A stretch of DNA of 53,217 bases from positions 1 to 53,217 of the IMG/VR virus record IMGVR_UViG_3300009548_000009; one strand, 5' to 3'. This DNA comes from a virus. Its lineage: Duplodnaviria; Caudoviricetes. A program made the translations under genes and the position numbers. Of this stretch, positions 132-53,217 are shown piece by piece. The notes beneath the pieces are model-generated. The model ran no database searches and had not been told where the DNA came from. It saw nothing but the letters and a program-made list of their open reading frames with translations. Within the stretch, counting starts at the first letter, position 1. Each line of letters opens with the position of its first letter.

Positions 132-938
132 TTATATTTTAATTAAGCCCGCCAACTCTGACTCAGCAGCTATGCACCAACAATCACTAGCGATACCGTT
201 TGTTATATACCCATACGGCAGCCATCCATACCCTGACATTCCCCAACTCGTGCCCCACGAATTGAGCGTAAGAAATGCCTGTTTTGAGTCGTCATGGCCA
301 ACCCACAGCATGCAGTGACCGCCAATGGCTGCCTCATCCTCACCGGGCATTTCTATCATTCCGTCTGGGCCGACGTTTTCTATTTGTTCGTATACGTTAG
401 TCCCGAATACTACTGGTAATCCAGTAACAGCTAAAACGGTTTTTATGTTTGTAAGCGTCGCATTGTACCCATCCGTGCTATCTACAAGATAATAGTTAGT
501 TGATTCATCTTTTACAGCTGCAGCGGCCACATCTGCTGGTATTTTCTTGTCGAACCTTTTGATGTCATACGGCCACATTGTCTCAGGAGCAACACCATAT
601 TGTGCTGTTGACTTGACTGCGCCGCGTATCGTGCCGCCGTTGTCGCCCGGGTAGTCTCCTTCTAAAATTCTTGTATCTTCATAGACCTGCAGCCTGGATC
701 CAAGTACGCAACTGCCGGTTCGTTTTACCTGCAACGCTTCAAACGCGCTTGTGGTTCCGTGTGCGGTGCATGATCCAAGTTGGCCCTGGTCTTTTACCTG
801 TGAGATCAGGTTCCGCAGGTCGCTTGTCTGAGGGAGTGGAGGGGCAACGCCACGCAGTTTTTCTTCATAGCGGTAGTCTCTATGATCGGGTGCAGCCTTG
901 CGCCAGCCGAAGTAATATTTTTTTCCTTTTATGTTCAT
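132..938 (-). CDS. Papain-like cysteine peptidase (family C1A)
   Basis: DQGQLGSCTA (oxyanion Gln, catalytic Cys), GGHCM (His), NSWGTSWG..GYGWLPY (Asn). Confidence 0.92.
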   Translation of the reverse strand: MNIKGKKYYFGWRKAAPDHRDYRYEEKLRGVAPPLPQTSDLRNLISQVKDQGQLGSCTAHGTTSAFEALQVKRTGSCVLGSRLQVYEDTRILEGDYPGDNGGTIRGAVKSTAQYGVAPETMWPYDIKRFDKKIPADVAAAAVKDESTNYYLVDSTDGYNATLTNIKTVLAVTGLPVVFGTNVYEQIENVGPDGMIEMPGEDEAAIGGHCMLWVGHDDSKQAFLTLNSWGTSWGMSGYGWLPYGYITNGIASDCWCIAAESELAGLIKI

Positions 939-1981
939 TGTACTCTCTTACCTCTCGAATGCCATTTGCCGGTTGTATCTGACCAGTATAGATTTCCGTC
1001 AACACCTATCGCGTAAAAGTCGCCAGTTGACGTTATTGCTGGCTCAGTTCCGCTTTCGAGCTGGCCGCCTAATGATTTCCACGTAACGCCTTTGTCTGTG
1101 CTATACCACAACGCATTGTCGCTTCCTTTCATGCAGACGTATGTACCGCATGCTACCGGACTGCCGACCATTGTGATCTGTTTGGGGGTTGGTGCTGGTG
1201 TAACACCTTTAAACCTGTTCTTCATCGTAACGTTCGTAGGCGGCCATAGTGCCATCCAGGCAGCATACCATGAAGCGAATCTGTTATAGACTGCGTTCAT
1301 GTTATTTCCGTATCCACTCCAGACGCCTATTCCTGCACAGGGTACGCCGTGAGCTTCCATTTCATATATCAAATTGATGTAATCCTGCGCGCTACTGGTT
1401 TTGAGTATATGATCAAGATGATCAATGCCTCTTTTTGCTAATTGGGCTTGCATCATCCAGCTTCCAACTAAAATGCCTATCTCCTTAACGCCATGCTTTT
1501 GTGCATCAAGCATGCCCGGGCCTACAACGTCCCATCCCCAGAAGTTAGCAGACGCATCATATGTTTCTAAATAAGAAGCAGCGCCGAATCCGTGGACCGG
1601 CGATGGGTGTGTAGCGGCCCAGACATCATCGTTTGTTCCGCCACCTGTACCCATGCCGCCATAGTCTAAAAAGATCAAGCTATTCATTATAGCATCAATC
1701 TCATTAGCTTGTTCTGATTCGCCGCCTGCAGCGTGGTAGCCGAGTGAAACTATTTTAGGATAGTAGGTTGATGTGCCATCCCACCCAGCCTTTCCATCGT
1801 TGCCGTTATTCAGGATTGGTGAGAGACCTGCGGCATTGCAGTCTAGGACGAACTGAGCAAGTGGAATTACACCCCCGCCGTGTACGACAAGGTGCGCGTC
1901 TATAATGCCAACTGTTCTAAGTGCGCCTAAGTTTGAATAACTGTCTCCAGCTATAAAGTAAGCCATGCTGTGGTTCATCAT
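935..1981 (-). CDS. Putative lytic enzyme: possible glycoside-hydrolase-like N-domain, Pro/Thr linker, C-terminal PLL-type lectin repeats
   Basis: VTPAPTPK linker followed by repeats KGSDNALWY...WKSLGG and IGVDGNLYW...WHSRG, typical of fucose-lectin propeller blades. The catalytic domain assignment is inference. ATGA overlap with the peptidase. Confidence 0.5.
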   Translation of the reverse strand: MMNHSMAYFIAGDSYSNLGALRTVGIIDAHLVVHGGGVIPLAQFVLDCNAAGLSPILNNGNDGKAGWDGTSTYYPKIVSLGYHAAGGESEQANEIDAIMNSLIFLDYGGMGTGGGTNDDVWAATHPSPVHGFGAASYLETYDASANFWGWDVVGPGMLDAQKHGVKEIGILVGSWMMQAQLAKRGIDHLDHILKTSSAQDYINLIYEMEAHGVPCAGIGVWSGYGNNMNAVYNRFASWYAAWMALWPPTNVTMKNRFKGVTPAPTPKQITMVGSPVACGTYVCMKGSDNALWYSTDKGVTWKSLGGQLESGTEPAITSTGDFYAIGVDGNLYWSDTTGKWHSRGKRVQ

Positions 1982-2011: not shown

Positions 2012-2158
2012 TTACGCGCCAAATAACGCGCTGAATCCTAATGCTATCAGGAGCGCCTTAAACAGGACGCTGCCGAGTAGTCCAAACGCACCACCTAGAA
2101 TCCACGTAACTATGAGTGTGAGCAATGCATCGTAGTTGACTGCAATAATTTCTAGCAT
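2012..2158 (-). CDS. 48-aa membrane protein, holin-like (not in ORF track)
   Basis: MLEIIAVNYDALLTLIVTWILGGAFGLLGSVLFKALLIALGFSALFGA, with GGAGG RBS upstream; precedes the two putative lytic enzymes. Confidence 0.6.
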   Translation of the reverse strand: MLEIIAVNYDALLTLIVTWILGGAFGLLGSVLFKALLIALGFSALFGA

Positions 2159-2179: not shown

Positions 2180-2326
2180 TTATTTTTGCCTCTCAACGAT
2201 CTTCTTTTTGATTTCTGCTTTGATCTCTGCCTTCATTACGCCTTCTTGCCAGTCCTTGTTTCGCCCCCACCTCGTCGGAGGCCGCTCAAGCATTCGATCG
2301 ATTGTGGTCTTTTTATTGTCAGTCAT
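2180..2326 (-). CDS. Small basic hypothetical protein
   Basis: Likely start MTDNKK inside ORF 2180..2392; fills the gap in the operon. Confidence 0.5.
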   Translation of the reverse strand: MTDNKKTTIDRMLERPPTRWGRNKDWQEGVMKAEIKAEIKKKIVERQK

Positions 2327-2351
2327 TTTTGCCTTTTTGTATATTAGCCTT

Positions 2352-2786
2352 TTAATTCCTACCGCAGCGGACAGATGCAATACTACCGCCATGATCTAGA
2401 ATCATAAACGTTCGTGTCCATGGTCCAAATGCCGCGGCTTTTCTCAATAACTTAACTGCCTCAACATCGCCTTTCATTTCGTGTATTAAAATGTGAACAT
2501 CAACAGGACAGCAGAGCAGGTTGACAGGATTGTTATTCGTCTTGTCTTTATCTTTATGATGGATATGATAGCCTGCGGGAATCTTAACTTTAAAGTGTTG
2601 TTCCCACGCTTTTCTATGATTGGCTGAGAATGCTCGCCTATATCCCCGTCCAGCTAAAGGAACTGATGATTGTGCAAGTTCCGGTTCTATACGTTCAACT
2701 GGCTCAAGGAACCTGCGGCTATACTCCTGAGCATCGGCCCTTATCTCAGCAAGGTATTCATCTAAAGTTATATTTGATTTTGTCAT
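2352..2786 (-). CDS. HNH endonuclease
   Basis: HIHHKDKDKTNNNPVNL...HILIH motif. Confidence 0.85.
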   Translation of the reverse strand: MTKSNITLDEYLAEIRADAQEYSRRFLEPVERIEPELAQSSVPLAGRGYRRAFSANHRKAWEQHFKVKIPAGYHIHHKDKDKTNNNPVNLLCCPVDVHILIHEMKGDVEAVKLLRKAAAFGPWTRTFMILDHGGSIASVRCGRN

Positions 2787-2798
2787 TCGTGTTTTGTG

Positions 2799-2812
2799 TT
2801 AACCCAGGTTAA
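2799..2812. promoter_or_regulatory. Palindrome TTAACCCAGGTTAA (one mismatch from TTAACCTAGGTTAA)
   Basis: Intergenic; related copies at 19331, 19457 and 48727. Confidence 0.55.
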
Positions 2813-2813
2813 T

Positions 2814-3647
2814 CTAAAGTGATAGTTCTCCGTTAATAAACAACGGCTTTACGTCCTCGCTTACGCTTTCCTGTATCTCCTCATCGCTGAAATACTGCTC
2901 AACGTTCTCGCTGAACTCGCACATGTACTCTTGCCTGAACCACCACTCACCTAGAACGGCTTTTTCTTCTTTTAAAAAAGCTTTAGAGATTCGCGGGCAT
3001 TCGTAGGCTGTTACCTTAAAGCCCTGCCACCCACCTAGGTTATCAGTTACATAATCGTTCCAGGATTCGTAAAAGAAGCCTCTGCGTCCGAATGGTGTTG
3101 AAAGTAAAATTAATCGGCCTTGAGAAACCGCAAGCATTGGCCGTAAGGAGCCGTAATAGAGCTCATCATCCTCGATTTGTGCTGCTTCATCAATAATCAT
3201 CAGACTCGGCGCGCTGAACCCTCGCACTGTCTGCGGCTTGGATGGTAGGCTTATTATCCTGCTTCCATTCGTTAATTCTAACGTATGCTTATTCTCTGCA
3301 TCGCTCGGGACCGGCCTGCCACGTTCCTGGTAAAAATCTGCTACTTTCTTAAATAGTTCTGTTGATTGCCGGTATCCTCTGCTTATGATGAGCACAAGGG
3401 AGTTAGGATTGTAAAGGGCGCTGTGTAACGCTATTATAGCGGTTATTGTTGATTTGCCTGACTGCCTGGCACAATTCAATATTATCTTTTTTTCTTCTGA
3501 GGTGAGCAGTTTGCGCTGCCAAGGATCGGGGTCAATGCCGAGTAATTGAGCGAATTTGATCGGGTTGATAGCAAGAGCTAGTTCTTTGCGTTCGCTTTCG
3601 TTTAAGGTTAGGATTGCGTCGTCAAATCTACTAGTACTAATCGCCAT
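2814..3647 (-). CDS. terL: Terminase large subunit, ATPase domain only
   Basis: PWQ adenine motif, Walker A ARQSGKS, Walker B MIIDEAA, coupling motif LSTP, QEYMCEF. Ends at 277 aa with no nuclease domain. Confidence 0.92.
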   Translation of the reverse strand: MAISTSRFDDAILTLNESERKELALAINPIKFAQLLGIDPDPWQRKLLTSEEKKIILNCARQSGKSTITAIIALHSALYNPNSLVLIISRGYRQSTELFKKVADFYQERGRPVPSDAENKHTLELTNGSRIISLPSKPQTVRGFSAPSLMIIDEAAQIEDDELYYGSLRPMLAVSQGRLILLSTPFGRRGFFYESWNDYVTDNLGGWQGFKVTAYECPRISKAFLKEEKAVLGEWWFRQEYMCEFSENVEQYFSDEEIQESVSEDVKPLFINGELSL

Positions 3648-4221
3648 CTGAATCTAATTGCTCGCTAAACTCTATGCGTTTTTCAATCGGTAGCGTTTTA
3701 AGAACTTCTTTAAGCTTTGCGACATCAGGGCCAGTTTTAACCTCACCACTGAGCTCTACCTTTTGTTTGTCAAGCCCAAGGATCTGCATAAACTTATCTA
3801 CACCTAGCTCCCAGCGTTTCCGCGCTTCTTTTGAGCCTATCTCACCTGTTTGCATATTCTCAAAGGCTTTATCGGCTATTTCAAGGGCTTCTTTTGAGCG
3901 CTGGTCTTTGAACTTTAATATTCTGTTCTCAAACGTCTGTAGTGCTTTCTTTTGCAGGTAATCGTCATATGCACGTGTGCGTTGCACCCAGTTATGATTT
4001 GCACTAAGACGGCCTAGGTAGCGTAAATATGATGGTTTCTTGTCGGCTTTCTGGCGTAGCTTTTCAAGTGAGCGTTCTGGACCCATATCACGGTACATAC
4101 AAAAAAGATCAAATGCTTTAGACCGCTCGGTATTCTGACGCGCCCATAATTCAGCTTCGCTGGGCAAAGATATCTCCAATAGAAAGAACGGAAAAATAAT
4201 ACTTAAGTATTGTGTGTACAA
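3637..4221 (-). CDS. terS: Terminase small subunit (probable; true start likely TTG at 4167)
   Basis: W...E.SKAF..F..YRDMG.ERSL...W..R..AYD pattern and C-terminal KVELSGEV; overlaps the start of TerL. Confidence 0.7.
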   Translation of the reverse strand: MYTQYLSIIFPFFLLEISLPSEAELWARQNTERSKAFDLFCMYRDMGPERSLEKLRQKADKKPSYLRYLGRLSANHNWVQRTRAYDDYLQKKALQTFENRILKFKDQRSKEALEIADKAFENMQTGEIGSKEARKRWELGVDKFMQILGLDKQKVELSGEVKTGPDVAKLKEVLKTLPIEKRIEFSEQLDSDGD

Positions 4222-5558: not shown

Positions 5559-6395
5559 TTAATGTTTTAAGTGCATAAACATACACGATAATAGCGCACC
5601 GCTCTTAGTAAATTCATCTATATCCACAAAGCAACTATCCAAACCCAGCTTAGCCGCGATTTCTGTTAAGGTGTTGTTCTTATGTGTGGTTTCGGGTGTT
5701 TCATCGTGAACCATGCCGTTATATATCGTGTCTTCTATTCTAAGAGAGTTAGTTATGCCCTCATAGCAGTCTTCTAAAGCTACGTTTATTACATTAAATT
5801 CCTTATTTAATAATTCCCAATCGTCGTCAGTAATAACTTCCTTACACGCTAGTATAGTATCGCTATCTACTGGAAATATGAAACAATCCACGTGGTAAAG
5901 GTAGTTGTCTAAGGCTTTTAATTTTATTATCTCTGCGTCAAACGCTTTTTCAATCCAGCATAAGGTTTCATATGAGGTAAATAACCCATAACTGGCTATA
6001 TACTGGTTATCGCGTATCCATTTAAGCTCGCCTTCGCCCTCAAAATACGCTGGTGGTGTATAACATGTGTACCCAAGAGTTTCTAAGAAGCCCAAGGCTA
6101 CCCATTCCTCACCGACTCGCCCATCTGCTCTAAAATGACTTATTACTGCGGTTTTATCTAAGTGCGGTAATACACATGCCGGATTTGTGGCATAAGTCTG
6201 ATCCTGTAACCCTGGTGTTGGTGGCAACAGGTACACCAGTGCGTGATTGGTAATTATCATATACAACGCCATAAACTGTTCTAGTGCGGCATCTAGGTTT
6301 ATTTCGCGTTCCTTTTGGGGTAAATCGAGCATCCATATGTTGTTTATTGTAGTGGTGCTCAGGTACCTGGGTGGGCACATAAGTAGTTCTTTCAT
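5559..6395 (-). CDS. Amidinotransferase/pentein-family guanidino hydrolase (resembles ArgZ/AgrE arginine dihydrolase domain, DDAH-like)
   Basis: LMCPP..INNIWM, QDQTYATN, FEGEGE, YHVDC and EFTKSGALLSCM, with catalytic His/Asp/Cys retained. Confidence 0.85.
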   Translation of the reverse strand: MKELLMCPPRYLSTTTINNIWMLDLPQKEREINLDAALEQFMALYMIITNHALVYLLPPTPGLQDQTYATNPACVLPHLDKTAVISHFRADGRVGEEWVALGFLETLGYTCYTPPAYFEGEGELKWIRDNQYIASYGLFTSYETLCWIEKAFDAEIIKLKALDNYLYHVDCFIFPVDSDTILACKEVITDDDWELLNKEFNVINVALEDCYEGITNSLRIEDTIYNGMVHDETPETTHKNNTLTEIAAKLGLDSCFVDIDEFTKSGALLSCMFMHLKH

Positions 6396-7003
6396 ATTTT
6401 GTTTATTCCTACTAACAGGAAATGGTATGGCACGCTGATAATCACCATGCAGCCGAAAAGGAAAAGGAAGAGTATATCTTCAAAAGGATAGTCGGTCATT
6501 TTTCATTAACTTCTGGATTTGTAACTCTAAACGCTGAGCATGTCCAATACATACTGCAGCACTTTTTACAGTAAGCGACTTCGATCGGGAAATATGTGAT
6601 CGGGCATGATACTACCTGTTTGCTCATTTTTTCAGGTCTTTTTGTTTTATATAATCTTCAAGTTCCTTAGCCCAAGCGTCTATCTGTTCGTGGGTAGGTG
6701 TGTTGCCATATAGTGGTGCTCCTATCTTTGCGAGCCGTCTTAGGGCCATGACGCGCTGAAGTAATACCTGCTGCTCAGATTTGCTAGTCATTTTTCAGCC
6801 CTCTTTTTCTTCATCTTCCTCGGACCTGTAGAACATACATGCAATGAGGTCAGTGTCTGGGTCTATTCTTGAATAAATACAACATTTCTCACAAGTCATT
6901 TTTCCACCTCTTTTTCTTCTATGATTACAACACCGTTTTCAAATCTCACCCGTTTCGTTCCGTCTGCAAGAATCGCATCAATAACATCCTCGCACGTAGT
7001 CAT
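6392..7003 (-). CDS. Chain of five coupled micro-ORFs: 6392-6499 (35 aa, hydrophobic), 6496-6627 (43 aa, Cys-rich), 6624-6791 (55 aa), 6795-6899 (34 aa), 6896-7003 (35 aa)
   Basis: Hand-translated. They tile the region end to end with ATGA overlaps or 3-nt gaps, each starting at a junction-motif copy. Confidence 0.7.
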
Positions 7004-48775: not shown

Positions 48776-50269
48776 TTATTCCATCCGACACCCTACATAC
48801 CCATCTGGTTTTTCTCCCCACCAACGACGCCACTGTTCGCCATGCTCCCTTAATTGATTAAATATCTCATCTTCTGTGAGGGCGTTATACTTACGTCGGA
48901 CTTCTTCCACTCCTGGTAGTTTTGATGCTTTCATTATAAAATCTAACGCGAAGTCTCGTTCTTCCGTCGTTGGATCTTTAAAGCAAATGATAAAGTTGCC
49001 AGTATTCATTAACTTTATCTGACCATCCCCATCAGAAGGAAGTTTCTTTTGTTCAGATATTACAGTAATTGACATTATCTTCCCTTCTTAATCGGCCTCT
49101 GCGGTTTCTTTGATGCAGCCACTCTGAAGAAATCAGCCTCGCTCATTGGCTGGCCGCCTACAGTAAACCCCTCGCCCTCTGCTATCGCTCCAAGCTTCGG
49201 AAGTATCGGGAGTGGTTTATCGTGGAGCATGCTCGCTGGGTTTGATGAAGTCATTGCCTGCCTGCGCTGGTTTAAGCGGCTTAGGTTCTTAATCAACTCA
49301 TCATCAGGCTCTTGCCTTTCTGGTCTGGGAATGTCAACCAACATCGCTTTTCGTATATCGTTGTTACGTTCCATCTCCTCGTCGTGGAGCGTTAACAGAT
49401 AATCAAGCGCCGTATCGTCGTTTATTGGCATCTTTGAGTAGACTGCTTTCTCGGCAGCCGTTACGCCTGGCCGGTTAAGCAAAGAAGAACGCATGCCTTC
49501 TAGCATCGTGTGCCAGTGGACGAGTAAATCTCCAGTTATTTTTAATGTGATCGGTTTGAACGTGCGACGTTTTGCCGCCTTCTCCATCTTCTTAGTAGCT
49601 TCCTCAATAATCTTTAGGTCTGCCTCCTCTTTGAGTGCAGCAAAAGCATCTATTGGCGGTGGTGGTTCTTTCACCATACGCTGAAGAAAGTCGCCTACTA
49701 AAGACTTCTCACTCACTTCTGGTTCTGGTTCAATCCCTTGCACTACGTCAATGACTATCTCTTCTTTAGGTTCAGGTTTAACTTCGGGTTTAACTTCAGG
49801 CTTAGGTTTCGTTGCTTTCTTTTTTGGCATTAGTTCCTCCTAGGTTAAAAGTGGAATACAAAGTGCGCTATGAGTATCCAGAGTATCGGATACACGAAGA
49901 TCATGAACAGCGCAAATAGCGTATTTCTGGTTTGGTTCTCTGGTTGTTCTGGTAACCCTTTTTTTCTCTCTCCAAGTAGCATTTCAAATCCTTCCTTCTC
50001 TGAATCAGTGAGCGGTCGCGTTGCGTCTCCGTCCTTTATGACTGATATATCTATCAGGTCTTTTGTGTTTACTAGGACCCTATGAAGTGACTCAAGGTTG
50101 ATAGTTTCTCCAAATTCGTTTTTCATCTTAACTTCAGCTCCCGAAACGGGCAGTTATTTACATGCATCTTTAAATCCCGTTTCAGCTCCTTTACTTCGTT
50201 TTCAAGTTTTAAGAGCACCTGTTGCATCTCCATTTCGGTAAGAAGGTTAGCTGCTTTATTAGTGGGCAT
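48776..50269 (-). CDS. Four hypothetical ORFs (48776-49075; 49075-49830; 49845-50126 with C-terminal TM; 50123-50269)
   Basis: Coupled minus-strand ORFs downstream of the portal. Confidence 0.65.
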
Positions 50270-52055
50270 TTTTCTTTTTCTTCTTTTTCTTAGGTTGTGT
50301 TTGTTCTAAGCCCTGGACATATGCAATACTAAAATCCTCATTGGGCCGGTTTACGTGGACATCTAAAACCGTCGGCTGGCTCTTTTTAGCTGGCAGCGGT
50401 TTGCCCCATGTATCTGTTTGTCCACGATACGGCGTCTCCTCGTTTATCGGCTGAGATCGTTCTCGAGCTGCAGCTGCAGTCTGCCCAGGCAGCAACGAAT
50501 CTACCGGCGTGGCCAATGGGCTTTCCGGTTCCGGTTCCTTTGGCAAGTGTATCAGATCCCATAGGGCGTTTCTAAACGTCACGTCATCTGGGATTGGCAC
50601 TCCGCCCCGGGCGACGTTGCTTAGGAATGTACCCACGTCATTGATCTCTGCGCTTGCTACGTCGCCATGCACAAGTTTAGGCAATGATTCGGGGTTTATA
50701 TCAGGATTGAGTTGCGCGAGTCGTGGAACAGCGTATGAGTTGAATACCTGGCAAATTGAATCCAATATCGCGCTTATTGAAATTGAAAAGAGATTATTTC
50801 TTGTTTCAGCAAGGGCGTATGATCCTGTCGTATCCTGGCCAAGCATAAGAAAATCAGCAAGGACAGTCATTGCTATCCATTTGCTAAACATCTGGATTAT
50901 GCCAACAATGTCAAACTGTCTTTGTGACTGCGGACCTGCTAGTTCTAAACTATACATTGGGCCGCCGCCTACATCAGAAGGATAATTGTTTGATGGTAGA
51001 AGTATGCCTTCGTCTTGGTTTCGCTTGAGATTGCGAACTATCCGTTTTAACATCTCTGCCATTGCTGATGAACGTGCATCGACTCCGGTTAGTACCTCAC
51101 CAGGAGCACGCAAGACAGGAACGCCTGCCATATCACGTTCTAGTCCTGTCATCATAATCTCTTCAGCCAGCTTTTTGAACATATATGTTCTATATGCCCC
51201 ACGCAAAAGACTCACACCTTCTGGGTTGCCCTTTCGAGGTTTAACTCGGAACAATAACAGTTTCTCTATCGGTATTTCAGTAATCCTAAAGTGAGGTGGA
51301 GCAAGTTGTCTGAATCCTCGTATGCCGCCGTTAACGTCAAAGTCCCAGTTTAATAGTGTTTCCTGGGCCCTAGTAGCAAACTTCCTCCAGCCTATTCTCC
51401 CATCATCAAAGTTGCTATTTAATGTCGGATCTTCTGGATGTGGCCCCTCTCGTTTCTTATAGACTATTTCTGAGATATGATAACCGAAGATAAACATGCT
51501 AAGAACCTCAGAAAGCAGATCATTTGGATTAACACTCATATCCTCCCAGCATTGTTGGTAAAATTCCAATGCTTTTAAGTCCTCAGGAGTAGAACCGTCA
51601 GTTTCCCACCAGAGGTTTACTGATCTGCATGACATCTCGACCGCATAAAAGATTGATGATATGACGGCATCCATCATGTACATCTCTTTGTACATACGGA
51701 CGCCGCGAGTGTATTGAAGTTCAGTCAGCCACTCCTCATACACGTAGGGAGGAATGTACATTAAGCCGGTCGTGCCGTACTCTGCGAAGTAGTTGAGGTT
51801 AACCGGAGCACCAGGTGACGAGGGGCCTATTCCCATGAGGTCGCCTGAGCCGAGCGTGGGCAAGCCCTGGGCAGTGAACGGCATCTCTTGTAAATCAATA
51901 AGTTTCTTTATGGTTGCCTGTTCAGACTTGGACAGCTTTTCAAACGCTGCGCTTTCTGATTCAGTAAATGATGTTATTCCGTTCGGGGGACTTTCGGGAA
52001 ATGAGGTTATCCCGTTCGGTTCCGTATTATTTTTCTTTATATTTTTTCGAGCCAT
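50259..52055 (-). CDS. Portal protein (Mu gp29/DUF935-like)
   Basis: Y.EM...D..I, GYHISEIVYK, GNPEGVSLLR.AY, ERD.AGVPV, GSYALA and VPRL..LN; follows the terminase nuclease. Confidence 0.92.
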   Translation of the reverse strand: MARKNIKKNNTEPNGITSFPESPPNGITSFTESESAAFEKLSKSEQATIKKLIDLQEMPFTAQGLPTLGSGDLMGIGPSSPGAPVNLNYFAEYGTTGLMYIPPYVYEEWLTELQYTRGVRMYKEMYMMDAVISSIFYAVEMSCRSVNLWWETDGSTPEDLKALEFYQQCWEDMSVNPNDLLSEVLSMFIFGYHISEIVYKKREGPHPEDPTLNSNFDDGRIGWRKFATRAQETLLNWDFDVNGGIRGFRQLAPPHFRITEIPIEKLLLFRVKPRKGNPEGVSLLRGAYRTYMFKKLAEEIMMTGLERDMAGVPVLRAPGEVLTGVDARSSAMAEMLKRIVRNLKRNQDEGILLPSNNYPSDVGGGPMYSLELAGPQSQRQFDIVGIIQMFSKWIAMTVLADFLMLGQDTTGSYALAETRNNLFSISISAILDSICQVFNSYAVPRLAQLNPDINPESLPKLVHGDVASAEINDVGTFLSNVARGGVPIPDDVTFRNALWDLIHLPKEPEPESPLATPVDSLLPGQTAAAARERSQPINEETPYRGQTDTWGKPLPAKKSQPTVLDVHVNRPNEDFSIAYVQGLEQTQPKKKKKKKNAH

Positions 52056-52094
52056 CTTTGCGTTGTTACCTTTAACCTTTACGTTTAATTTTGA

Positions 52095-52778
52095 TTATCC
52101 CGGAAGTATCGTACCCATACCTTCACCTACAATAACTGGCATAAAACCGCTTTCCCCTTTTTTCTGAGCGTACCAGCACGCCAGCGAAACAGCGAACACT
52201 AAATCATCATGCTCTCCCTCGCGCCATGCTTCGTATGAGTCATGTCCAGTTGCGATGTTTACCTTGACGTGAAAGTTCTGCAGTTCTTTCATGAGCGTTT
52301 CACGAAACGGCGTCCCCTTTGCTATTTTCAATCGCTTTTTACCCAGCAGTACTTTTGGCACTGAGACCAGATCCCGTTTAGGAACGCTCCAATAGCCTTT
52401 TTCAAACGACGTGTGTTGGCCGCCGGTTACGGTTACTGGTATAGGTTGTAGGCCTTTTAGTTTGAAACTGTCAATTATAGCTCTACCTACGCCGGTTGCA
52501 TCAACGACAAGAAAAAGCGGAACGTTTTGTTGTTTGAACTGCTGAACCATTTTATATATATATTCTTCAACGTTAGTATAGCTGGTTTCAAGTGGCAGAC
52601 GCTCACAGTGGCGGAGGTTATATTCTAAGTTTAACCGGCTTTCCATTGAGCTTGAGCCACTAAACATCTCGTTTTCTGATACGCTAACACTAACCGGATT
52701 GCGTTCTATTATAGCAAGTGCTGTATAATCCCTTGCTTGTCCGATATCTAGGCCCATAAAATAAGTATTACTTGTCAT
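52095..52778 (-). CDS. terL: Terminase large subunit, RNase H-like nuclease domain only
   Basis: GLDIGQARDYTAL, VVDATGVG and HDDLVFAVSLA; standalone 227-aa gene upstream of the portal. Confidence 0.92.
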   Translation of the reverse strand: MTSNTYFMGLDIGQARDYTALAIIERNPVSVSVSENEMFSGSSSMESRLNLEYNLRHCERLPLETSYTNVEEYIYKMVQQFKQQNVPLFLVVDATGVGRAIIDSFKLKGLQPIPVTVTGGQHTSFEKGYWSVPKRDLVSVPKVLLGKKRLKIAKGTPFRETLMKELQNFHVKVNIATGHDSYEAWREGEHDDLVFAVSLACWYAQKKGESGFMPVIVGEGMGTILPG

Positions 52779-52961
52779 TCTTTAGTTCTTTAGTCAAATG
52801 AATTCTTATACCTGGCTTTTCTCTCAAGCCGCTCGAGCTGCGAAGTCATCTGCCTGCCCTGTGCCTTGCAGTCATAGCACCACCTACCTTTCAAAGAGCA
52901 CCAACTCCCGCAGCTTGGTTTTTGTTCCACTTTTCATGTCCACTTTTACATTAAAAAAAAT

Positions 52962-53217
52962 TCATCTTCGCCTTCTTGCCTTTCTCTCAGCCTCAAATTT
53001 ATCCCTAGCTTTAGCCCACTGTTCTTGCGACAGAGTATCTACCGGAGCATTTGATGGTAAAACTATACCTTCATCTTGCCTCTCGGCCCTCGGTGCTGGC
53101 GGTTCTGCGGTTGCGTCCCACGTTTCAGACCCATTAATCGTAAATGATGCAGTATCATCAAGTGGATACACTACTTTTTGCTTGCCCTTAAGCACTACCC
53201 GCACTTCATACGTGTAC
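52962..53217 (-). CDS. Partial hypothetical protein (frame open to the window end)
   Basis: The frame continues upstream of the GTG at 53204 as ...YTYE with no stop. Confidence 0.55.
   Translation of the reverse strand, partial: YTYEVRVVLKGKQKVVYPLDDTASFTINGSETWDATAEPPAPRAERQDEGIVLPSNAPVDTLSQEQWAKARDKFEAERKARRRR

What the first reader, a model, noticed from the sequence alone, without database searches (positions are those of the whole stretch)
2814..3647. Large terminase split into two genes with the lysis cassette between them
Seen: the ATPase domain (2814-3647) ends cleanly with TAG. The RNase H-like nuclease domain is a separate ATG-started gene (52095-52778) next to the portal. Both keep their catalytic motifs. 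Across the window junction they are about 3.3 kb apart, separated by an HNH gene, the putative lysis genes and small ORFs. Known: TerL is normally one polypeptide. The spacer is protein-coding, and I see no intein (N-terminal Cys/C-terminal His-Asn) or intron signatures. Inference: a two-subunit packaging motor whose ATPase and nuclease assemble in trans.
Basis: partly seen in the sequence, partly recalled or inferred. Interest (0 to 1): 0.75.

Follow-up and report, generated by a model that had tools for sequence, protein, structure and literature searches.

The report
Large terminase encoded as two genes
This virus, probably of peat methanogens, makes its DNA-packaging enzyme from two separate genes, a motor gene and a DNA-cutting gene, that lie far apart, and many related viruses split the enzyme at the same point, giving a natural two-piece version of a motor normally studied as one protein.

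Summary
2814-3647(-) is a 277-aa TerL ATPase ending in TAG. 52095-52778(-) is a 227-aa ATG-started RNase H-like TerL nuclease that keeps all six active-site residues and sits next to a Mu-type portal.

The stated spacing is wrong. The window is a linear, about 93% complete contig, not a closed circle. A 96%-identical relative bridges its two ends with 5.5 kb more DNA (repeat-rich, tail-fibre-like genes). The halves therefore lie about 8.8 kb apart, not 3.3 kb.

The split is neither an assembly artefact nor caused by the HNH gene. A close relative lacks the HNH gene but has the same stop codon.

The split is shared by a clade. Of 87 related viral loci, 71 have separate ATPase and nuclease ORFs, mostly abutting with their own start codons. 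Of the 150 nearest ATPase clusters, 112 are ATPase-only in length. 18 of 20 (pro)viral loci in bacterial and archaeal genomes are split. The closest cultured phages (Thermus, Meiothermus) have fused TerL.

No intron, intein or single recoding route fits. A complex model docks the ATPase's C-terminal linker tail onto the nuclease (0.72 against controls 0.00), although this may reflect memory of solved one-piece TerLs.

Verdict: a genuine two-polypeptide terminase, a new variant of a known kind.

The parts
3637..4221 (-). Small terminase subunit (TerS), 194 aa. It overlaps the start of the ATPase gene.
   Evidence: phrog_6299 'terminase small subunit', E 1.3e-17. ORF. No Pfam hit.
2814..3647 (-). 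TerL ATPase subunit, 277 aa, ending in TAG (2814-2816).
   Evidence: Terminase_6N E 1.4e-16. phrog_7579, full length. PDB 3ezk E 3e-12 and 4zni E 1e-8. Walker A, Walker B and C-motif residues are invariant in A1. Logan contigs from three independent runs cross the stop with 0 differences.
2817..2906 (-). C-terminal tail of the ATPase subunit (residues 248-277), homologous to the inter-domain linker of one-piece TerL. It is the predicted docking peptide for the nuclease subunit.
   Evidence: In fused relatives the ATPase match ends at query residue 245-262 and the nuclease match starts 12-30 residues later. All modelled interface residues of chain 1 lie in 248-277. A ...P-L-F motif recurs in 29 of 84 ATPase-only relatives that carry the QEY anchor.
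2352..2786 (-). HNH_3 endonuclease gene. It is optional and mobile, not part of the terminase and not the cause of the split.
   Evidence: Pfam HNH_3 E 6e-11. Window 2181-2785 is replaced by about 38 nt in relative L003, whose ATPase ORF ends at the same TAG.
2012..2158 (-). 48-aa hydrophobic ORF, possibly a holin. This is inference from its sequence only.
   Evidence: ORF and translation. No family hit.
935..1981 (-). 348-aa protein of unknown family. It may be a lytic enzyme, because its C-terminal part resembles the tail of the C1 peptidase homologue in relatives.
   Evidence: No Pfam or PHROG hit. tblastn of residues 260-347 matches the C-terminus of the peptidase homologue in L005, L006 and L008.
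132..938 (-). Papain-family (C1) cysteine peptidase, 268 aa, a candidate lysis enzyme.
   Evidence: Peptidase_C1 E 1.6e-16. phrog_16701 'peptidase'.
52962..53217 (-). 3' part of a gene cut by the contig end. It is the C-terminus of a 198-aa protein that is complete in relative L020.
   Evidence: the translations match.
52790..52930 (-). 46-aa Cys-rich ORF immediately upstream of the nuclease gene.
   Evidence: Weak zf-CCHC_3 hit, E 0.003, below the cut-off.
52095..52778 (-). TerL nuclease subunit, 227 aa, RNase H/RuvC-like, with its own ATG.
   Evidence: PDB 5tge E 1.3e-5 and 5m1f E 1.2e-4. phrog_27743 (annotated 'unknown function') E 5.8e-41 over 9-218 of 233 positions. Terminase_6C 22.1 bits. 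D17, D93 and D191 are invariant; D11, H190 and D192 are at least 90% conserved in A2.
50259..52055 (-). Portal protein, 598 aa.
   Evidence: Portal_Mu E 3e-28.

Best explanation
The large terminase of this virus is made as two separate polypeptides. One is a 277-aa ATPase subunit, encoded next to TerS. The other is a 227-aa RuvC/RNase H-like nuclease subunit, encoded next to the portal. The break lies immediately before the first beta-strand of the nuclease fold, so the former inter-domain linker stays on the ATPase chain as a C-terminal tail. The most likely mechanism is that this tail docks non-covalently onto the nuclease subunit. The ATPase ring grips DNA and presents it to the recruited nuclease, which cuts at the start and end of packaging, as in one-piece TerL.

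Shown: there are two ORFs with their own stop and start, the catalytic residues are conserved, and the same break point occurs across a large clade. Inferred: the two proteins bind, they bind through the tail, and nuclease activity depends on the ATPase subunit.

In evolution, a fission of a compact Thermus-phage-like TerL gave two abutting, probably translationally coupled cistrons. That is the common state. In a subclade that holds all five archaeal-MAG loci, the cistrons were later pushed apart. The gap reaches about 8.8 kb here and holds lysis-like and tail-fibre-like genes.
For: (1) The two ORFs are real and reproducible. Independent assemblies L002 and L003 carry the same TAG stop. L019 and L020 carry the same nuclease ATG. 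Contigs from three other runs cross the stop with 0 differences.
(2) The arrangement is continuous. L020 bridges the contig ends. L002 confirms the left junction and L019 the right.
(3) Clade-wide split. 71 of 87 viral loci have separate ORFs, 2 were detected as fused, and 14 gave no nuclease hit. Of those 14, L057, L074, L083 and L088 have both Pfam domains in one ORF; L018 is one 519-aa ORF with only a sub-threshold TerL_nuclease hit; L016, L080 and L093 show only the ATPase domain; L017 was not scanned. The other five (L002, L003, L033, L047, L086) are the window's own lineage or lack enough downstream DNA to judge. At 90% ATPase identity there are 82 clusters: 59 abutting, 6 spaced, 3 far, 11 fused and 3 unknown. 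18 of 20 genomic loci are split.
(4) Of the 150 best ATPase representatives, 112 are 240-330 aa long and 28 are 395 aa or longer. Of the 120 best nuclease homologues, 108 are 190-265 aa long.
(5) In abutting loci the nuclease start usually overlaps or follows the ATPase stop, by about -34 to +11 nt, often behind a GGAGG-like motif. The relative frames are 2, 0 and 1 in 35, 11 and 4 clusters, so no single recoding event could fuse them.
(6) No Rfam family reaches its gathering score, and neither half has an intein domain.
(7) Complex model: score 0.72, best of 3 controls 0.00. The mark was reached by 58 of 80 solved complexes and 2 of 110 mismatched pairs; these counts hold only roughly because my own alignments were used. 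The runs agree in at least 67% of contacts and the partner's pLDDT is at least 72. The interface on the ATPase chain is residues 248-277 only.
[quoted passage not shown] This implies that a free nuclease subunit needs its ATPase partner.
Against: There is no protein, RNA or biochemical evidence. The complex model may pass because it resembles solved one-piece TerL structures, since these are halves of a split gene. It shows likeness, not binding. The nuclease's Pfam hit is just below the curated cut-off. The tail motif is not universal: PLF occurs in 29 of 84 relatives, and P-hydrophobic-aromatic in 42 of 84. In L009-L011 the halves are in frame and separated by a single TGA, so read-through in some relatives cannot be excluded. 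The 8.8 kb figure rests on a 96%-identical relative, not on this strain. Tree backbone support is weak: 34 of 89 inner branches are below 80. Many homologues come from short metagenomic contigs with automatic gene calls.
Confidence: 0.8

Rival explanations
1. The two halves are rejoined after transcription or translation, by group I or II intron splicing, trans-splicing or a split intein, so that the working enzyme is a normal one-piece TerL.
For: Split terL genes in print are of this kind. [quoted passage not shown]
Against: About 8.8 kb holding at least a dozen same-strand ORFs lies between the halves. The window has no Rfam hit at gathering threshold. Neither half has an intein domain and neither has spare length: the ATPase tail is 32 aa, and the nuclease starts 8 residues before its first strand. 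In most relatives the ORFs abut or overlap by a few bases, which leaves no room for an intron.
Confidence: 0.03
2. The nuclease-like protein no longer works with the ATPase subunit. The motor would be ATPase-only, as in phi29. Cutting, if needed, would be done by another nuclease such as the HNH protein, and the RNase H-like protein would have another role.
For: The two genes are unlinked here and lie in different gene neighbourhoods. HNH genes sit near the terminase genes in the window and in L006.
Against: All six active-site residues are conserved across 61 nuclease-only homologues. The nuclease gene accompanies the ATPase gene in 71 of 87 viral and 18 of 20 genomic loci. The HNH gene is missing from the near-identical relative L003. 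The complex model supports binding (with the caveats given under the best explanation).
Confidence: 0.1
3. Artefact: a chimeric assembly of two viruses, or a sequencing error that created the stop codon.
For: The contig is an incomplete metagenomic assembly.
Against: Four other assemblies (L002, L003, L019, L020) show the same gene ends and the same neighbours. Contigs from runs X2, X3 and X5 cross the stop with 0 differences. The same break point occurs in dozens of diverged lineages.
Confidence: 0.02
4. Translational recoding (stop read-through or frameshift) makes some fused TerL in the relatives whose cistrons abut. The window lineage then lost that option.
For: In L009-L011 and the near-identical L107 and L109, the halves are in frame across one TGA. 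Many other loci overlap in the -1 frame.
Against: All three relative frames occur, in 35, 11 and 4 clusters. Overlaps are often only 1-4 nt, and start codons with GGAGG-like motifs sit at the expected place. Recoding cannot apply across 8.8 kb in the window.
Confidence: 0.05

Closest known systems
One-piece TerL of Thermus phages P74-26/G20c and of Thermus phage Riverbug and Meiothermus phages MMP7/MMP17
   Same: Same ATPase and RuvC-like nuclease families. Identity to the ATPase half is 47.6% for Riverbug and 42% for MMP17. The nuclease half hits 5tge and 5m1f. The active-site residues are the same. A Mu-type portal lies nearby.
   Different: Those are single CDSs of 415-417 aa. Here there is a stop codon after the linker, a new ATG before nuclease strand 1, and about 8.8 kb between the two genes.
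terL genes interrupted by group I introns or inteins (Jug phages, Staphylococcus phage Twort, cyanophage Mic1)
   Same: terL appears as several ORFs in the genome.
   Different: Those are repaired by RNA or protein splicing into one polypeptide. Here there is no intron or intein signature. The break is at one conserved inter-domain position, and each part has its own translation signals.
'Genes in pieces' made by homing-endonuclease insertion in T4-like phages (NrdA of Aeh1, gp43 DNA polymerase).
   Same: An essential enzyme is encoded as two polypeptides that reassemble non-covalently, and an HNH gene sits at the break in the window.
   Different: The HNH gene is dispensable for the break, since L003 lacks it. 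The split is old and clade-wide rather than a recent single insertion.
phi29-type gp16 packaging ATPase (recalled from memory)
   Same: A packaging ATPase polypeptide that carries no active nuclease.
   Different: phi29 needs no cutting. Here a conserved, catalytically intact nuclease partner gene is kept.

Membership tests
Caudoviricetes large terminase (TerL; Pfam Terminase_6N plus Terminase_6C type) | ASCE P-loop packaging ATPase with Walker A, Walker B and the coupling (C) motif | tested here: met
   Terminase_6N E 1.4e-16. PDB gp17 and P74-26 hits. R61, G64, K65, D153 and E154 are invariant; S183, T184 and P185 are at least 90% conserved.
Caudoviricetes large terminase (TerL; Pfam Terminase_6N plus Terminase_6C type) | RNase H/RuvC-like nuclease with the metal-binding Asp triad (P74-26/G20c D294, D347, D429) | tested here: met
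   Alignment to 5tge places D11, D93 and D192, and also D17, H190 and D191, on these residues. They are conserved in A2. The residue roles come from passages of PMC5389665 and PMC5389553. The fold itself was not modelled on its own.
Caudoviricetes large terminase (TerL; Pfam Terminase_6N plus Terminase_6C type) | Both domains on one polypeptide | tested here: not met
   A TAG stop follows residue 277, and the nuclease is a separate ATG-started ORF. The same holds in 71 of 87 related viral loci.
Caudoviricetes large terminase (TerL; Pfam Terminase_6N plus Terminase_6C type) | Encoded in the packaging module beside terS and the portal gene | tested here: met
   TerS abuts the ATPase gene. The portal follows the nuclease gene after 39 nt. 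The module itself is split in two.
Intron- or intein-interrupted terL | A self-splicing RNA (group I or II) or a Hint/intein domain at the break | tested here: not met
   Rfam at gathering threshold gave 0 hits in the window. Neither half has an intein family in Pfam. Abutting or overlapping ORFs in relatives leave no room. The looser Rfam E-value mode was not run.
Homing-endonuclease 'gene in pieces' | The break coincides with, and depends on, the inserted endonuclease gene | tested here: not met
   L003 lacks the 605-nt HNH segment but has the identical ATPase stop. Most split relatives have no gene between the halves.
Two-subunit (trans-assembling) terminase large subunit, proposed here | Physical association of the two polypeptides | not testable with these tools
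   Only a model is available: score 0.72 against best control 0.00, with the interface on ATPase residues 248-277. This may reflect memory of solved one-piece TerLs.

The most novel reading that the evidence does not exclude
A large clade of tailed viruses and proviruses has abandoned the textbook single-chain TerL. It is found in MAGs labelled as methanogenic and other archaea and as at least seven bacterial phyla. These viruses would run their packaging motor with a free ATPase subunit and a free nuclease subunit, held together by the old linker peptide. In the methanogen-associated subclade the two genes have become unlinked. The amount and timing of the nuclease can then be set independently of the motor, for example expressed with the portal, which may be a different way of controlling the headful cut.
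Probability: 0.55. Interest if true: 0.75.

Novelty: new variant of a known kind. Interest (0 to 1): 0.62.

Why it matters
TerL is the hallmark protein of tailed viruses. It is used as a single-gene phylogenetic marker and treated as one chain: one review calls its C-terminal nuclease domain 'a universal feature across Caudovirales' (PMC7824862, passage). A widespread natural two-chain form has three consequences.

1. Pipelines that expect a TerL of 400 aa or more will mis-call or mis-align these viruses. PHROGs labels the ATPase-only family 'terminase large subunit' and the nuclease-only family 'unknown function'.
2. It offers a natural system for open questions about the motor. These include which part contacts the portal, how the nuclease is kept silent during translocation, and what nuclease stoichiometry is needed.
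3. It shows that the covalent link between motor and nuclease is dispensable.

The prophage in the cultured Methylocystis sp. JAN1 (L098) may offer a laboratory entry point.

Tried and rejected
Rfam at gathering threshold found nothing in the window. The looser E-value mode was not run.

I then used the smaller alignment A3 on viral contigs and the single protein on genome contigs.

Nine literature searches found no paper in the held library that describes a natural ATPase/nuclease two-gene TerL without introns or inteins. Passages were read in 11 papers. Subscription journals and supplements were not visible, so prior description cannot be excluded. My recollection that some annotation schemes list separate 'ATPase domain' and 'nuclease domain' terminase entries could not be checked.

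Sequencing runs: no RNA holder was listed, so expression and splicing could not be examined. Run X4 has no contig over 2305-2592, which says nothing.

A conserved 'PLF' docking motif was considered as a defining feature. It was downgraded because only 29 of 84 anchored ATPase-only relatives have it.

I considered a DNA rearrangement that excises the intervening 8.8 kb and rejected it. There is no recombinase, the interval holds tail-fibre-like and lysis-like genes, and both ORFs have their own stop and start.

No separate fold prediction or fold search was run for either half. The sequence matches to solved structures were taken as enough.

Full report
WHAT IS THERE. All genes at both ends of the window run on the minus strand. 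Reading that strand from the low-coordinate end, the order is as follows:
- a small terminase, 3637-4221, phrog_6299 E 1.3e-17
- a 277-aa TerL ATPase, 2814-3647, Terminase_6N E 1.4e-16, phrog_7579 over 2-238 of 239 positions
- an HNH_3 endonuclease, 2352-2786
- two small ORFs, one of them very hydrophobic
- a 348-aa protein with no family hit, 935-1981
- a papain-type peptidase, 132-938

At that point the contig ends. At the other end the contig opens inside a gene (52962-53217). A 46-aa ORF follows, then a 227-aa ATG-started protein (52095-52778), and 39 nt later a Mu-type portal (50259-52055).

The 227-aa protein matches the solved nuclease domains of Thermus-phage TerL: 5tge at E 1.3e-5, 5m1f at E 1.2e-4. 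It also matches phrog_27743 at E 5.8e-41. Its Pfam Terminase_6C score is 22.1 bits, just under the 22.6 cut-off.

The alignment to 5tge puts D11, D17, D93, H190, D191 and D192 on P74-26/G20c D294, D300, D347, H427, D428 and D429. Passages of PMC5389665 and PMC5389553 give these as the active-site residues, with D294, D347 and D429 indispensable. All six are invariant or at least 90% conserved in 61 nuclease-only homologues.

The ATPase keeps Walker A (R61, G64, K65), Walker B (D153, E154) and the S-T-P motif. It ends in TAG. The record holds no other Terminase_6N.

THE SPACING IS NOT 3.3 KB. The window is a whole IMG/VR record classed as linear, with no end repeats and about 93% completeness. 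Closing it into a circle is therefore unjustified.

Relative L020 is 95-97% identical to the window. Its bases 43-150 match window 108-1, and its bases 5691-6828 match window 53217-52092. It thus spans the gap with 5540 extra bases. L002, from a different assembly, runs 975 nt past window position 1 and matches L020 27-964. L019 runs 1271 nt past the other end and matches L020 4420-6828.

The extra DNA encodes same-strand ORFs of 96, 161, 550, 661, 217 and 198 aa. The two large ones are full of Thr/Ala/Pro-rich repeats and have no Pfam or PHROG hit. They look like fibre or adhesin proteins, and their repeats probably broke the assembly.

The distance from the ATPase stop to the nuclease ATG is therefore about 2813 + 5540 + 439 = 8.8 kb. 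This is inferred from a close relative, not measured in this strain.

NOT AN ARTEFACT, AND NOT CAUSED BY HNH. L002 and L003 have the same TAG stop. L019 and L020 have the same nuclease start. Logan contigs from three further peat-metagenome runs cross the stop codon with no differences: X2 over 2461-2861, X3 over 2457-3420 and X5 over 2395-3702. No joint was reported at either gene end.

In L003 (98% aa identity over the ATPase half), window 2181-2785, which holds the HNH gene, is replaced by about 38 nt. The ATPase ORF still ends at the same place. The HNH gene is thus a mobile passenger.

THE SPLIT IS A CLADE TRAIT. I collected relatives of the ATPase half from IMG/VR. The first search gave 17 loci. 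The second found 317 relatives, of which the tool kept 80. I scanned them with HMMs built from ATPase-only and nuclease-only alignments (A1 and A2).

The 87 loci with an ATPase match divide as follows:
- 71 have the nuclease in a separate ORF.
- 2 (L014, L015) have one fused ORF.
- 14 gave no nuclease hit.

Of those 14, five (L002, L003, L033, L047, L086) are the window's own lineage or lack enough downstream DNA to judge. The other nine are single ORFs of 420-519 aa. Pfam finds both domains in L057, L074, L083 and L088. L018 has only a sub-threshold TerL_nuclease hit. L016, L080 and L093 show only the ATPase domain. L017 was not scanned.

Collapsed at 90% ATPase identity, and including the genome loci and two cultured phages, there are 82 clusters: 59 abutting, 6 spaced by about 150-300 nt, 3 far apart, 11 fused and 3 undetermined.

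In the abutting loci, the nuclease start codon typically overlaps or follows the ATPase stop by about -34 to +11 nt. It is often preceded by a GGAGG-like motif. The nuclease ORF lies in relative frame 2, 0 or 1 in 35, 11 and 4 clusters. That pattern fits independently initiated, probably coupled cistrons. It does not fit one recoding mechanism. In L009-L011 the halves are in frame across a single TGA, so read-through there cannot be excluded.

Searches without genomic context agree:
- Of the best 150 of 10,967 ATPase homologue clusters, 112 are 240-330 aa and 28 are 395 aa or longer.
- Of the best 120 of 376 nuclease homologues found in the 124-398 aa search range, 108 are 190-265 aa.

In one genome per species, 20 loci were found and 18 have separate ORFs. 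L096 is fused. L097 has no nuclease within about 5.9 kb downstream. The record titles name Methanomicrobia, Halobacteriota and Methanobacteriota MAGs. They also name Methylocystis sp. JAN1 (a complete chromosome) and MAGs of Chloroflexia, Bacillota, Acidobacteriota, Magnetococcales, Gemmatimonadales and Rhodothermales.

The nearest cultured phages have one-piece TerL of 415-417 aa: Thermus phage Riverbug at 47.6% and Meiothermus MMP7/MMP17 at 42%. No cultured phage in the held collection belongs to the split group. The nuclease half hits only 3 records there, all fused.

EVOLUTION. I built an ATPase-domain tree of 108 rows (92 distinct) with IQ-TREE in quick mode. It is rooted on two distant fused sequences, and two short rows (L018, L075) were dropped.

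The tree puts the fused Thermus/Meiothermus-type sequences at the base. The split forms fall in one large group that contains two nested fused groups. The minimum number of fused/split changes is 3. Backbone support is weak: 34 of 89 inner branches are below 80.

The window sits in a 26-row clade (SH-aLRT 94) that contains all five archaeal-MAG loci. Most of the 'far' and 'spaced' arrangements are in this clade. The 'far' state needs at least two changes on starred branches: the window lineage, and the L004-L008/L097 lineage. In L006 the 2.7-kb gap holds a 678-aa Metallophos protein.

With the peat and wetland labels of the runs that hold the sequence, a methanogen host is a reasonable guess. 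It is unproven, because MAG bins can contain stray viral contigs.

HOW IT PROBABLY WORKS. Against fused relatives, the ATPase half aligns up to residue 245-262. The nuclease half aligns from its residue 4-6, starting 12-30 residues later in the fused proteins. The break is therefore at the C-terminal end of the inter-domain linker, and the linker (residues about 246-277) stays on the ATPase chain.

I ran a complex prediction with alignments A1 and A2:
- Score 0.72; best of 3 controls 0.00.
- The mark was reached by 58 of 80 solved complexes and 2 of 110 mismatched pairs. These counts hold only roughly, because my own alignments were used.
- The runs agree in at least 67% of contacts, and the partner's pLDDT is at least 72.
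- Every confident contact on the ATPase chain lies in residues 248-277. On the nuclease, contacts lie at residues 4, 23, 25, 54-57, 77-86 and 138-172.

One-piece TerL structures are solved, and these proteins are halves of a split gene. The pass may therefore come from memory. It shows likeness, not binding.

A ...P-L-F motif near the tail's end recurs in 29 of 84 ATPase-only relatives that carry the QEY anchor. In the L006 lineage both the tail and the nuclease are much more diverged than the ATPase core: nuclease 27% identity against ATPase 58%. This fits co-evolution of the two but is only an anecdote.

[quoted passage not shown] A free nuclease subunit should therefore depend on its ATPase partner to reach DNA.

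RIVALS. Splicing or inteins do not fit:
- The window has no Rfam hit at gathering threshold.
- Neither half has an intein domain or spare length.
- About a dozen ORFs lie between the halves.
- Relatives leave no room for an intron.

An unrelated role for the nuclease is unlikely, given the conserved active site and its steady co-occurrence with the ATPase gene. An assembly chimera is contradicted by the independent assemblies.

COMPARISON AND NOVELTY. Both halves are bona fide TerL domains of the T4/P74-26 type. The defining 'one polypeptide' feature is not met. The known ways of splitting terL, by introns and inteins, do not apply.

Nine searches of the held library found no description of a natural two-gene ATPase/nuclease TerL. 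This does not cover subscription journals or supplements. PHROGs already contains both families but labels the nuclease-only one 'unknown function'. This suggests the arrangement has gone unremarked rather than unseen.

I rate it a new variant of a known kind, of moderate to high interest to people who study packaging motors or use TerL as a marker.

Noticed in passing
window 2181-2785, against L003 10863-10900: The HNH_3 endonuclease gene is a presence/absence polymorphism between near-identical viruses. About 605 nt in the window and L002 are replaced by about 38 nt in L003. It behaves like a free-standing homing endonuclease inserted just downstream of the ATPase gene.
   Followed up: partly
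L020 6828-7556, against window 52056-52094: Relative L020 carries a 242-aa DNA methyltransferase (phrog_67, E 2.7e-71) between the nuclease and portal genes. The window has only a 39-nt spacer there. This is another indel hot spot inside the packaging module.
   Followed up: partly
L020 1045-4679 (DNA missing from the window, between its two ends): Two large ORFs (550 and 661 aa) carry many Thr/Ala/Pro-rich repeats of the 'TPTATTAT' kind and have no Pfam or PHROG hit. They may be fibre or adhesin proteins. The repeats probably explain why the window's assembly stops here.
   Followed up: no
L006 11108-13144: In the 58%-identical lineage, the 2.7-kb gap between the terminase halves holds a 678-aa calcineurin-like phosphoesterase (Metallophos, E 1e-7, matched only over residues 105-274). 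A long internal insertion looks intein-like by eye. Pfam did not confirm this.
   Followed up: partly
L043, L044, L045, L077, L087 (downstream of the ATPase gene): These loci have two nuclease-like ORFs in tandem after the ATPase ORF, and both match the nuclease-half HMM over nearly its full length. This may be a duplicated nuclease subunit.
   Followed up: no
L094, L095, L096, L097, L104 and the tree: The closest genomic relatives lie in MAGs labelled Methanomicrobia, Halobacteriota and Methanobacteriota. The runs that hold the window are labelled peat or wetland metagenomes. The virus may infect methanogenic archaea. If so, the C1 peptidase could be a cell-envelope-degrading lysis enzyme.
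   Followed up: partly
window 935-1981 and 132-938; L006 7862-9049 and 14975-16171: The 348-aa protein and the C1 peptidase homologues share a C-terminal repeat region: tblastn of residues 260-347 hits the peptidase gene's 3' end in L005, L006 and L008. This suggests a common cell-surface-binding module on two different lytic enzymes. In the L006 lineage these genes flank the terminase module rather than lying inside it.
   Followed up: no
L009-L011, L107, L109 (ATPase stop at L009 10748): In this Clostridia-associated lineage the ATPase and nuclease ORFs are in the same frame, separated by a single TGA. The next codon is a TTG. This could be a recent fission, a read-through site or a TGA-reassigned host.
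   Followed up: no
window 1390-1454: One contig of run X5 replaces 63 nt inside the 348-aa gene with 15 other letters. L002 also differs most from the window in this region (93.9% over 1454-2180). This part of the gene is variable.
   Followed up: no
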